A DNA stretch of 64,000 nt from Escherichia coli. Its GTDB lineage: Bacteria; Pseudomonadota; Gammaproteobacteria; Enterobacterales; Enterobacteriaceae. The first letter of the stretch is position 1; each line of letters opens with the position of its first letter. Of the stretch, positions 18,001-21,000 are shown piece by piece. The DNA lies in the NCBI RefSeq assembly GCF_048403405.1, contig NZ_CP183129.1. One strand, 5' to 3'. The position numbers are program-made.

Positions 18001-21000
18001 TTTCGTACAGGGCAATGGCGGCAGCGTTTGAAGCACGGACTTCCAGCCATAGTGTCGCCACGCCGCGTTTTTCCAGTTCGTCGATCAGATGTTCCAGCAG
18101 CGCCCTTCCCAATCCCTGACGCTGATAGTCAGGATCGACCGCAATATTGAACAATGTAGCTTCATCCAGCACCACTTGCGTAATCGCAAACGCCGCCATT
18201 TTGCCGTTTTGCGTTAACTGAAAGTTGAGATAACGCTCGCCCTGGTTGCTGGCAAAGGTTTTTTCACTCCACGGAAAGGCGTGGGCGCGTTGTTCAATGT
18301 GGTAAGCCGCTGGTAAATCAGTCGTTTCGAGGGAAGAAATCGTGTTCATATGTGCAAATTTGTTGCCATAACGCGGCGCGTGCCGTTGGGTTTGCCCGTA
18401 ATTCGGTGAGCGCCGGTGATGCCACCTGAGCGCCTTCCAGTGATAGCGGTTCGTCAGTACCCAACCGCCAGCTGTTGCAGCGACTGCCTTGTGGCAGCAT
18501 CGCGATTTTTTCTGGCGTCAGTTGCAGCACTTGATCGGGGCTGACGGTTAATGCGCGCAGAACATCGCTCACCAGAGGATCGGTCAGGGCGGGAAGATCG
18601 TTTGCCACCATCACCAGACGGACGTGTGCCGGGATCGCAATCGCAATCTCCCCCTGCAACGCGCCAGGGCGACGCAGCGACCACTGGGTAATGCCCAGTT
18701 GCTGTAACTGCCAGTCTCGTCGGGATGTCATAGCGAATCGCTCCTGTTGTCAGGGGCGCAAATATAGCAAATTCGTCGATACCGCGCCAACATATGGCTA
18801 TAATCGCCGCCAGTATCAATTGAGGAGCATTCCATGTCTGCATTTACCCCGGCAAGTGAAGTCTTGCTGCGTCACAGTGATGATTTCGAACAAAGCCGTA
18901 TTCTGTTTGCCGGAGACTTACAGGATGACCTGCCCGCGCGTTTAGATACCGCGGCCAGCCGTGCTCATACCCAGCAATTCCACCACTGGCAGGTATTAAG
19001 CCGCCAGATGGGGGATAACGCCCGTTTCAGTCTGGTCGCCACGGCGGATGATGTCGCAGATTGCAATACGCTGATTTACTACTGGCCGAAGAACAAACCG
19101 GAAGCCCAGTTCCAGTTGATGAATTTACTTTCTCTACTGCCGGTGGGCACGGATATTTTTGTCGTTGGCGAGAACCGCAGCGGCGTGCGCAGCGCCGAAC
19201 AGATGCTGGCAGATTATGCGCCGTTGAATAAAGTCGATAGCGCCCGTCGCTGTGGCCTCTATTTTGGTCGTCTGGAAAAACAACCGGAATTTGATGCCGA
19301 TAAATTCTGGGGCGAATACAGCGTCGATGGCCTGACAGTCAAAACGCTGCCTGGCGTGTTTAGCCGCGACGGTCTGGATGTCGGTAGCCAGTTGCTGCTC
19401 TCGACGTTAACTCCGCACACGAAAGGTAAAGTGCTGGATGTCGGCTGCGGCGCGGGCGTGCTTTCGGTTGCCTTTGCGCGCCATTCACCGAAAATTCGTC
19501 TCACTCTGTGCGATGTCTCTGCACCAGCGGTAGAAGCCAGCCGCGCAACACTTGCGGCCAACGGTGTTGAAGGTGAAGTCTTTGCCAGTAACGTCTTTTC
19601 CGAGGTGAAAGGTCGTTTTGATATGATCATCTCCAACCCGCCGTTCCACGATGGGATGCAAACCAGCCTCGATGCGGCGCAAACGCTGATTCGCGGCGCG
19701 GTGCGTCATCTTAATAGCGGCGGCGAGCTGCGAATTGTAGCGAACGCCTTCCTGCCTTACCCGGACGTGCTGGATGAGACATTTGGCTTCCACGAAGTGA
19801 TCGCGCAAACCGGGCGCTTCAAGGTGTATCGCGCCATTATGACCCGCCAGGCGAAGAAAGGTTGAGTATCTGATATCTGTCGCCGCATACCGTGTCGGAT
19901 GCGGCGTACACGCCTTCTCTGACCGACAAACGAATTATCCACAATCCGCTGATGGACATTTTTCCAGCAATTACACCTCCGGCGATAATTAACTATTGAC
20001 GAAAAGCTGAAAACCACTAGAATGCGCCTCCGTGGTAGCAATTCTTTTTAAGAATTGATGGTATGCGAAGGTGGCGGAATTGGTAGACGCGCTAGCTTCA
20101 GGTGTTAGTGTCCTTACGGACGTGGGGGTTCAAGTCCCCCCCTCGCACCAAAAACCACGTTGATATTGCTCGCACTGGGCGAAGGTGGCGGAATTGGTAG
20201 ACGCGCTAGCTTCAGGTGTTAGTGTTCTTACGGACGTGGGGGTTCAAGTCCCCCCCTCGCACCAAACGAGGCGATATCAAAAAAAGTAAGATGACTGTGC
20301 GAAGGTGGCGGAATTGGTAGACGCGCTAGCTTCAGGTGTTAGTGTCCTTACGGACGTGGGGGTTCAAGTCCCCCCCCTCGCACCAATTATCTTTACTTCC
20401 TTTCTTGTTTCTTCCCTGTTTTATCATCCCTGATTCAAATTCATTAGCATCAGCATGATGCCAGCACTAAGCGCCAGGCACGATGGCAGCAAAACGTAAT
20501 GCCGCAACTGTTTGTGATACAACATCACCGGCGTCAATATTAATCCCATCAGAATGACAATCCGCCACTGATCCGGCGATAAATCCGCATACATCAGCCC
20601 TGCAATCAGCAATCCCGGCAGCAACACTCCCCAGCCACTGCCCAGCGTACGTTGCAACATGGTTTCATCTCTTTCATTGATAATGATAACTAATATCATA
20701 TGATAATTTTTATCATTTGCAAGCCAGAGAAATCCCTTGCTATCGGGTAAACCTATCGCTAGGATTAGCAATCATTATCATTTAGATTACTATCACGATT
20801 ATGGCCTATCGTTCCGCACCGCTCTATGAAGATGTTATCTGGCGAACGCATCTCCAGCCGCAGGATGCTGGGCTTGCACAAGCCGTACGGGCGACGATCG
20901 CCGAACATCGTGAACATTTGCTCGAGTTTATCCGCCTGGATGAACCCGCTCCGCTTAACGCCATGACGCTGGCGCAATGGTCATCACCGAATACGCTAAG

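What the first reader, a model, noticed from the sequence alone, without database searches (positions are those of the whole stretch)
20065..20385. Sequence differences among the three tRNA-Leu(CAG) copies
Copies 1 and 2 have a 7-C run where copy 3 has 8 (86 versus 87 nt), and copy 2 has a C-to-T change in the variable arm that converts a G-C pair to G-U. The homopolymer difference would shorten the acceptor/T-stem region and may be an assembly artefact rather than biology.
Basis: seen in the sequence. Interest (0 to 1): 0.3.

Follow-up and report, generated by a model that had tools for sequence, protein, structure and literature searches.

The report
Probable homopolymer miscalls in tRNA-Leu genes
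Two of three tandem E. coli leucine-tRNA genes appear one C short, almost certainly a sequencing/assembly miscall at a long C-run rather than biology, and the single C-to-T difference in the middle gene is a normal, conserved variant.

Summary
The window holds the E. coli leuQ-leuP-leuV operon, three tRNA-Leu(CAG) genes between rsmC and yjjZ. Copies 1 and 2 are 86 nt with a 7-C run. Copy 3 is 87 nt with 8 C. Copy 2 has T at 20226, turning a variable-arm C-G pair into U-G.

The C-to-T change is real and ordinary. K-12 MG1655 leuP has it, and so do the middle copies in Klebsiella and Enterobacter.

The 7-C runs are very probably consensus errors (confidence about 0.9).
- The nearest relative, TUM1226, has 5 substitutions across 64 kb. 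The window's only single-base indels against TUM1226 and ST38 are three 1-bp contractions of G/C runs of 7 or more: two C8 runs and one G7 run, now G6 at 17199.
- Among about 5,426 complete E. coli genomes, leuQ is 8C in 4,816, 7C in 177 and 9C in about 25.
- 7C calls cluster in the same assemblies and co-occur with the G6 call.
- PacBio-only assemblies of laboratory strains show scattered 7C patterns that contradict their pedigree. DHB4 reads 87/86/86, yet its descendant C3026 reads 87/87/87.

The rival is genuine slippage, because this run is a documented indel hotspot in mismatch-repair-defective cells. It is disfavoured but needs reads to exclude. Interest is low.

The parts
19996..20023 (+). 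Promoter-like site of the leuQPV operon: -35 TTGACG, 16-nt spacer, -10 TAGAAT, followed by a GC-rich stretch (GCGCCTCC).
   Evidence: 10 of 12 consensus matches. The position upstream of the first tRNA is seen. Function is inferred from the known K-12 operon, not tested here.
20065..20150 (+). leuQ, tRNA-Leu(CAG) copy 1. 86 nt as written, with a 7-C run at 20136-20142 where the species norm is 8.
   Evidence: Orthology by synteny and identity to K-12 b4370. The trailer CCAAAAACC matches the published leuQ trailer (PMC2190699).
20179..20264 (+). leuP, tRNA-Leu(CAG) copy 2. 86 nt as written, with a 7-C run at 20250-20256. T at 20226 gives a U-G pair in the variable-arm stem, which is the normal leuP allele.
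   Evidence: K-12, ST38, TUM14771 and NCTC9112 all have T in the middle copy. Klebsiella, Enterobacter and a metagenome contig do too. The trailer CCAAACGAG matches PMC2190699.
20299..20385 (+). leuV, tRNA-Leu(CAG) copy 3. 87 nt with the canonical 8-C run at 20370-20377.
   Evidence: Identical to K-12 leuV. Rfam tRNA score 48.5 bits.
17199..17204 (+). G6 run in the prfC-yjjG intergenic region. It is G7 in TUM1226, ST38, K-12 C3026, E. coli B C2566 and a metagenome contig. This is a second 1-bp G/C homopolymer contraction, taken as the same artefact class.
   Evidence: The G6 allele occurs in only 88 of 5,424 genomes and co-occurs with 7-C tRNA calls.

Best explanation
The locus is the ordinary E. 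coli leuQ-leuP-leuV operon. It holds three tandem tRNA-Leu(CAG) genes transcribed from one strong promoter as a polycistronic precursor. RNase P cuts that precursor into individual tRNAs. The true sequence of all three genes most likely has an 8-C run, made of five T-stem bases and three acceptor-stem bases. The 7-C runs written for leuQ and leuP, and the G6 run at 17199, are most likely single-base under-calls of long G/C homopolymers in the consensus of an error-prone assembly, probably long-read-based. The T at 20226 is the genuine, conserved leuP isodecoder allele, with a U-G instead of a C-G pair in the variable-arm stem. Shown here: the sequence differences, the orthology, the population rarity and assembly-level clustering of 7-C calls, and the pedigree contradictions in PacBio-only assemblies. 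Inferred: that this particular window's 7-C calls share that technical cause.
For: (1) Nearest relative. TUM1226 differs from the window by 5 substitutions over 63,854 aligned bases. Its only 1-bp indels against the window are C8->C7 in the tRNA and G7->G6 at 17199. ST38 shows the same contraction in both leuQ and leuP. In the relatives, the only G/C runs of 7 or more in this region are that G7 and the three C8 runs, and the window contracts 3 of these 4. Against TUM1226, none of the 17 A/T runs of 7 or more differs in length.
(2) Closest locus sequences. Five genomes (H2-H6) are identical to the window over 601 bp except for exactly two extra bases. TUM14771 was confirmed as 8C/8C/8C.
(3) Population counts. 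The leuQ allele with this flank is 8C in 4,816 records, 7C in 177 and 9C in about 24-28. leuP is 7C in 140 and leuV is 7C in 156.
(4) Clustering by assembly. 7-C calls in different copies co-occur far above independence: at least 18 against 4.6 expected, at least 16 against 5.1, and at least 22 against 4.0. They also co-occur with the G6 call, at least 27 against 7.7 or fewer expected. Calls cluster by sequencing project.
(5) Pedigree controls. K-12 MG1655 reads 87/87/87, but K-12 derivatives read 86/86/87 (NEB 5-alpha), 87/86/86 (DHB4), 85/86/86 (ER1709), 86/87/86 (DTU-1) and 86/87/87 (HST04). DHB4 reads 87/86/86 with G6, while its engineered descendant C3026 reads 87/87/87 with G7. C2566 reads 87/87/87, while its descendant C3029 reads 87/86/86. 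All four were PacBio RSII/HGAP-only assemblies (PMC4816632).
(6) Published error pattern. PacBio-only assemblies carry systematic indel errors in homopolymers, mostly single G or C deletions outside AT-rich genomes (PMC8574707).
(7) Other collections. In 100,044 species-representative genomes only 4 carry a 7-C copy. Two of them (Kluyvera YDC799, Enterobacter sp. EA-1) show other obvious damage in the same tRNA genes (G4 run, 12-nt and 3-nt internal deletions), and all four are chromosome- or Mb-scale contigs. Of 3 metagenome hits, 2 are contigs at about 2x coverage.
(8) Structure. As written, copies 1 and 2 lose a 3'-acceptor position and 7.7 bits against the tRNA model.
Against: No read-level data could be examined, and the sequencing platform of the window is unknown. 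The window is otherwise clean, with no other 1-bp indels against TUM1226 in 64 kb, so this is not a generally poor assembly. The 8-G.C run of leuP/Q/V/T is a documented genuine mutational hotspot. In mismatch-repair-defective mutation-accumulation lines it took 95 of the 117 indels in all tRNA genes, about 1e-4 per gene per generation (PMC8510543), so real -1 alleles can arise and be tolerated. Copy number at this locus varies naturally. TUM1226 has one copy, and several hundred genomes lack a leuP-type match, which suggests relaxed constraint on individual copies.
Confidence: 0.9

Rival explanations
1. The 7-C runs, and the G6 run, are genuine -1 replication-slippage mutations fixed in this strain, for example after a mismatch-repair-deficient (mutator) episode. 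They would impair or inactivate two of the strain's tRNA-Leu(CAG) genes, with leuV and leuT (outside the window) carrying the load.
For: [quoted passage not shown] The four genes took 23, 29, 25 and 23 indels in about 250,000 generations (PMC8510543). All three window indels lie in long G/C runs, as slippage would predict. The closest relative carries only one tRNA gene at this locus, so reduced gene dosage may be tolerated in this clone.
Against: From the MMR-defective data, two leuQPV indels should be accompanied by about 10.8 base substitutions in a 64-kb window. An MMR-defective spectrum is transition-dominated (general knowledge of such strains, not read from the paper). The window differs from TUM1226 by only 5 substitutions, of which 3 are transversions. 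P(2 or fewer transitions) is about 0.0015 on that rough model. The same 7C and G6 calls appear in PacBio-only assemblies of MMR-proficient laboratory strains, in patterns that contradict their pedigree. That shows a technical process produces exactly this signature at a few per cent per copy. 7C outnumbers 9C about 7:1, and both cluster by project. CUG is E. coli's most used codon (general knowledge), so damaging two of four genes should be selected against.
Confidence: 0.07
2. The isolate or culture was heterogeneous at these hypermutable runs, a mixture of 7-C and 8-C cells, and the consensus caller picked the minority or near-equal 7-C state in two copies.
For: The high slippage rate at this run in MMR-defective cells (PMC8510543) makes sub-populations conceivable. 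Repeated genes make read placement and consensus less certain.
Against: In repair-proficient cells the rate should be orders of magnitude lower (inference from the known efficiency of mismatch repair on homopolymer loops). Near-50% sub-populations at three separate runs at once are therefore implausible. The cross-assembly clustering points to a platform or pipeline effect rather than culture heterogeneity.
Confidence: 0.02
3. The 86-nt genes are a functional, lineage-specific tRNA-Leu variant with a six-pair acceptor stem and an unpaired A5.
For: The deleted position is the one that normally sits opposite A5 in a non-Watson-Crick A-C juxtaposition (NC line), so the loss removes a mismatch rather than a base pair. 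ARAGORN and Rfam still call the genes.
Against: No lineage carries the variant consistently. The sequences closest to the window are 8C. 7C appears scattered over unrelated strains and over different copies. It is almost absent from 100,044 species representatives. A shortened acceptor/T-arm stack conflicts with the conserved 7+5 bp geometry that RNase P, CCA-end positioning and EF-Tu rely on (general tRNA knowledge, not tested here).
Confidence: 0.01

Closest known systems
E. coli K-12 leuQ-leuP-leuV operon (b4370, b4369, b4368; tRNA-Leu1, anticodon CAG)
   Same: Same synteny (rsmC - three tRNAs - yjjZ - fhuF). Same promoter-proximal order and same spacers and trailers (CCAAAAACC, CCAAACGAG). 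Identical tRNA bodies, including the leuP-specific T in the variable arm. Copy 3 is identical to K-12 leuV.
   Different: The window writes 7 C instead of 8 C in leuQ and leuP, giving 86 nt instead of 87.
Homopolymer-length consensus errors of long-read-only assemblies (PacBio RSII/HGAP; also 454 and Nanopore)
   Same: Single-base deletions confined to long G/C runs. Recurrence at the same sites in many unrelated assemblies. Clustering by assembly and by project. Contradiction of known strain pedigrees.
   Different: The platform and polishing history of the window's source are unknown, and no reads were inspected, so assignment to this class is by signature only.
Indel hotspot at the 8-G.C run of leuP/Q/V/T in mismatch-repair-defective E. 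coli (Foster laboratory mutation-accumulation data, PMC8510543)
   Same: Exactly the same run in the same genes, with a single-base length change.
   Different: Those are verified mutations in MMR-defective lines. Here the accompanying substitution load and spectrum do not look mutator-like, and the same calls occur in assemblies of repair-proficient laboratory strains.

Membership tests
tRNA-Leu(CAG), leuQPV operon of E. coli | Anticodon CAG and type-II (long variable arm) tRNA architecture | tested here: met
   ARAGORN calls three tRNA-Leu(cag) genes. The Rfam RF00005 alignment shows a 12-nt variable-arm insertion forming a 4-bp stem.
tRNA-Leu(CAG), leuQPV operon of E. coli | Score above the Rfam tRNA gathering threshold (29 bits) | tested here: met
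   40.8, 40.8 and 48.5 bits.
tRNA-Leu(CAG), leuQPV operon of E. coli | Synteny between rsmC and yjjZ/fhuF, with three tandem copies behind one promoter | tested here: met
tRNA-Leu(CAG), leuQPV operon of E. coli | Full 87-nt sequence with a 7-position acceptor stem and 5-bp T stem (8-C run) | tested here: not met
   Met for copy 3 only. Copies 1 and 2 as written have 7 C and lose one 3'-acceptor position. This is interpreted as a sequence error, not as non-membership.
Long-read homopolymer consensus error | Indels restricted to long homopolymers, predominantly G/C deletions, in an otherwise near-identical comparison | tested here: met
   3 of the 4 G/C runs of 7 or more are contracted by 1. There are no other 1-bp indels against TUM1226 over 64 kb.
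Long-read homopolymer consensus error | The same miscall recurs in independent assemblies of strains whose true sequence is known, in patterns incompatible with descent | tested here: met
   Five different patterns across K-12 derivatives. DHB4 (7C, G6) against its descendant C3026 (8C, G7). C2566 against its descendant C3029. PacBio RSII/HGAP only, per PMC4816632.
Long-read homopolymer consensus error | Miscalls cluster by assembly or project rather than by phylogeny | tested here: met
   Co-occurrence is 3-5 fold above independence, as lower bounds. There are runs of consecutive accessions from single projects. The sequences closest to the window are 8C.
Long-read homopolymer consensus error | Raw accurate reads of the same strain support the longer run | not testable with these tools
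   No read data or assembly metadata for the window are available.
Genuine slippage mutation in a mutator lineage | The site is a known slippage hotspot | tested here: met
   PMC8510543: 95 of the 117 tRNA-gene indels fell in this 8-bp run.
Genuine slippage mutation in a mutator lineage | An accompanying excess of transitions and of other homopolymer indels relative to close relatives | tested here: not met
   5 substitutions in 64 kb, of which 3 are transversions. About 10.8 were expected per two leu-run indels. None of the 17 A/T runs of 7 or more changed against TUM1226. The numbers are small and the model is rough.

The most novel reading that the evidence does not exclude
The 7-C runs are real. 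This clone would have suffered -1 slippage at the known hypermutable 8-C run in two of its tandem tRNA-Leu(CAG) genes, plus a G7 run nearby, leaving crippled copies. Its sister strain TUM1226 has independently reduced the same locus to a single gene. Together these would suggest ongoing, tolerated erosion of tRNA-Leu(CAG) gene dosage in a natural E. coli lineage.
Probability: 0.06. Interest if true: 0.35.

Novelty: not a real feature. Interest (0 to 1): 0.07.

Why it matters
The finding matters mainly as quality control. It shows that a few per cent of "complete" E. coli genomes, and this window, mis-state the length of the 8-C run in the most heavily used leucine tRNA genes. Annotation pipelines still call these 86-nt genes as normal tRNAs, so the error propagates silently. 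The same run is also a genuine hotspot in repair-defective cells. Anyone using public assemblies to study tRNA gene variation or mutator signatures therefore has to separate miscalls from mutations at exactly this site. The C-to-T difference in leuP is an ordinary, conserved isodecoder variant. Nothing here points to a new biological mechanism.

Tried and rejected
(1) Inferring a sequencing-era bias from the accession numbers in the 7-C hit lists. The 8-C control search showed that tied hits come out in database order, so list position says nothing about date. I used pedigree controls and co-occurrence statistics instead.
(2) Minimum-free-energy folding of the three tRNAs. Even the canonical 87-nt copy does not fold into a cloverleaf in silico, with z-scores of -0.8 to -1.4. 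The folds say nothing about the effect of the missing C, so the covariance-model alignment was used.
(3) Using species-representative genomes and metagenomes as an orthogonal frequency estimate. 7-C is very rare there, with 4 genomes and 3 contigs. The value lies in the accompanying signs of poor sequence.
(4) Reading the CDC paper on 77 PacBio STEC genomes, to tie the many CP027xxx 7-C assemblies to a platform. The paper is not held. Only its citation was seen, so that link stays an inference from strain names.
(5) A functional 86-nt tRNA variant was considered and rejected because no lineage carries it consistently.

Full report
**What is there.** The window is an E. coli chromosome segment. 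Positions 19996-20385 hold the leuQ-leuP-leuV operon, which lies between rsmC and yjjZ/fhuF as in K-12.
- A sigma-70-type promoter match sits at 19996-20023 (TTGACG, 16 nt, TAGAAT).
- Three tRNA-Leu(CAG) genes follow: copy 1 (leuQ) at 20065-20150, copy 2 (leuP) at 20179-20264 and copy 3 (leuV) at 20299-20385.
- The trailers after leuQ (CCAAAAACC) and leuP (CCAAACGAG) are exactly those published for K-12.
- In K-12 the operon is transcribed as one precursor, cut into individual tRNAs by RNase P alone, and ended by a Rho-dependent terminator (PMC2190699). This fits the absence of an intrinsic terminator match downstream.

**Check of the observation.**
- The three genes are identical except for two things.
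- First, the C-run after the T-loop is 7 long in copies 1 and 2 and 8 long in copy 3, giving 86, 86 and 87 nt.
- Second, copy 2 has T instead of C at 20226.
- In the Rfam tRNA alignment, the T falls in the 4-bp variable-arm stem and turns its third pair from C-G into U-G.
- The missing C is modelled as a deletion in the 3' strand of the acceptor stem and costs 7.7 bits (48.5 against 40.8).
- ARAGORN compensates by shifting the 5' end of copies 1 and 2 one base upstream.

**The C-to-T change is real and ordinary.**
- K-12 MG1655 leuP carries the same T, while its leuQ and leuV carry C. The same holds in ST38, TUM14771, NCTC9112, 2014C-3011 and all the laboratory strains examined.
- The leuP-specific query, including the T, finds its counterpart in 4,843 of 5,426 complete E. 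coli genomes.
- The middle copy of the orthologous operon also has T in Klebsiella michiganensis, Enterobacter sp. EA-1 and a large metagenome contig.
- This is an old, conserved isodecoder difference.

**The 7-C runs: comparison with near-identical genomes.**
- The closest complete genome, TUM1226, differs from the window by only 5 substitutions over 63,854 aligned bases.
- Over the first 20,153 bases there are no substitutions at all and exactly two gaps. One is the tRNA C-run (8 in TUM1226). The other is a G-run in the prfC-yjjG intergenic region, which is G7 in TUM1226 and G6 in the window at 17199-17204.
- ST38 shows the same three single-base contractions in the window: G7, leuQ C8 and leuP C8.
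- Within the window's span, the relatives' only G/C runs of 7 or more are that G7 and the tRNA C8 runs. The window has shortened 3 of these 4.
- Against TUM1226, none of the window's 17 A/T runs of 7 or more differs in length.
- Five genomes match the 601-bp locus perfectly except for being two bases longer. The one inspected, TUM14771, is 8C/8C/8C.

**Population frequencies.** I used 78-80-nt copy-specific queries, so that any single difference falls below 99% identity.
- The leuQ allele with this flank is 8C in 4,816 records, 7C in 177 and 9C in about 24-28.
- leuP is 7C in 140 records and leuV is 7C in 156. Each copy is therefore under-called at a similar rate of about 3%.
- The G6 allele occurs in 88 of 5,424 genomes.
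- These calls are not independent. From only the first 60 rows of each list, the leuQ/leuP, leuQ/leuV and leuP/leuV overlaps are at least 18, 16 and 22 genomes, against 4.6, 5.1 and 4.0 expected.
- At least 27 of the 60 listed G6 genomes also carry a listed 7-C call, against 7.7 or fewer expected.
- Both 7C/G6 and 9C calls come in runs of consecutive accessions from single projects.
- Clustering by assembly and project, not by relatedness, is what a technical cause predicts.

**Pedigree controls.**
- K-12 MG1655 reads 87/87/87.
- Assemblies of K-12 derivatives read 86/86/87 (NEB 5-alpha, the window's own pattern), 87/86/86 (DHB4), 85/86/86 (ER1709, which also has G4 in the T stem), 86/87/86 (DTU-1) and 86/87/87 (HST04).
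- DHB4 reads 87/86/86 with G6, yet the SHuffle K-12 strain C3026 engineered from it reads 87/87/87 with G7.
- E. coli B C2566 reads 87/87/87, yet its derivative C3029 reads 87/86/86.
- All four genomes came from one study that used PacBio RSII P6 chemistry and HGAP only (PMC4816632).
- A descendant cannot regain two exact bases, so these 7-C calls are errors.
- Independent work reports that PacBio-only assemblies carry systematic homopolymer indel errors, mostly single G or C deletions outside AT-rich genomes (PMC8574707).

**Wider collections.**
- Among 100,044 species-representative genomes, the 7-C version occurs in only four, all on chromosome- or Mb-scale contigs.
- In two of the four the same tRNA genes show further damage. 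Kluyvera YDC799 has a G4 T-stem run and copies of 84 and 85 nt. Enterobacter sp. EA-1 has 12-nt and 3-nt internal deletions.
- Among 241 million metagenome records there are three hits, two of them on contigs of about 2x coverage.

**The rival that deserves respect.**
- The 8-G.C run of leuP, leuQ, leuV and leuT is a documented mutational hotspot.
[quoted passage not shown] The four genes took 23, 29, 25 and 23 indels in about 250,000 generations (PMC8510543).
- Genuine 7-C alleles can therefore arise and persist under weak selection.
- Against this for the window: the same data set has 30,061 substitutions, which scales to about 10.8 substitutions in a 64-kb window for every two leuQPV indels. 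An MMR-defective spectrum is dominated by transitions (general knowledge, not read from the paper).
- The window differs from TUM1226 by 5 substitutions, of which 3 are transversions.
- This calculation is rough and the numbers are small. I weight it less than the pedigree controls, which show that a technical process generates exactly this signature in repair-proficient strains.
- I put the artefact at about 0.90, real slippage at about 0.07, culture heterogeneity at about 0.02 and a functional variant at about 0.01.

**Consequence if the 7-C genes were real (inference).**
- The 8-C run supplies the five 3' T-stem bases and the first three 3' acceptor bases.
- The canonical tRNA already has a non-Watson-Crick A5-C68 juxtaposition.
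- Removing one C would leave A5 unpaired and shorten the acceptor/T-arm stack by one position.
- This would be expected to disturb RNase P cleavage-site measurement and 3'-end placement.
- None of this was tested.

**Verdict.** The homopolymer difference is most probably not a real feature of the organism. The variable-arm difference is a known, conserved allele. Interest is low. Reads or a 600-bp PCR/Sanger product would settle it.

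Noticed in passing
window 17199-17204: A G6 run in the prfC-yjjG intergenic region. 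It is G7 in TUM1226, ST38, K-12 C3026, E. coli B C2566 and a metagenome contig. The G6 allele is present in only 88 of 5,424 complete genomes and is enriched in the same assemblies that carry 7-C tRNA calls.
   Followed up: yes
L006 25067-25153 (TUM1226), corresponding to window 20065-20385: The closest relative has a single tRNA-Leu gene at this locus, with the upstream flank of leuQ and the downstream flank of leuV. Either recombination between the repeats deleted the other two, or the tandem repeat collapsed in assembly. Other genomes also seem to vary in copy number: 583 genomes lack a leuP-type match, and some show fewer matching places.
   Followed up: partly
window 20630 (within yjjZ, minus strand): TUM1226 carries an 11-bp tandem duplication (CCCAGCCACTG) inside yjjZ that the window and ST38 lack. 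Its yjjZ is annotated as 222 nt instead of 237 nt.
   Followed up: no
L001 2280-2365 (E. coli Ch1): Ch1 shares the window's 86/86/87 pattern and the G6 call, but its middle copy has C rather than the usual leuP T. This suggests gene conversion between copies or another consensus problem. Five further strains from consecutive accessions, apparently the same project, also show G6.
   Followed up: partly
window 1-17100 (integrase at about 15603-16826, minus strand): A lambdoid prophage lies next to yjjG, where K-12 and B have prfC directly adjacent. It carries terminase, lysis, cold-shock, antitermination and repressor genes and a tyrosine integrase. A short prfC-like pseudogene fragment is annotated at the junction in TUM1226 and ST38.
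   Followed up: partly
window 19885-19924 (minus strand): A weak, sub-threshold Rfam match to naRNA4 (23.6 bits against a gathering score of 59.5, E = 0.14) lies between rsmC and the tRNA promoter. It is probably a REP-type palindromic element.
   Followed up: no
E. coli genome hits H296-H319: 9-C over-calls of the leuQ run also exist in about 24 genomes and come in project-specific batches: eight CP0748xx strains and seven CP195xxx river or wastewater strains. They also occur in older genomes such as APEC O1 and NRG 857C.
   Followed up: partly
L012 6050-6370 (Enterobacter sp. EA-1) and L008 5919-6236 (Kluyvera YDC799): Species-representative genomes with visibly damaged tRNA-Leu copies: 12-nt and 3-nt internal deletions, a G4 T-stem run, and genes of 84 and 85 nt. 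ARAGORN finds only one of the three copies in EA-1.
   Followed up: partly
window about 35400-45000 and about 49900-52440: By alignment to the TUM1226 annotation, the window also carries the hpa (4-hydroxyphenylacetate) catabolic cluster and a penicillin G acylase gene. The hpa cluster is absent at this position in ST38.
   Followed up: no
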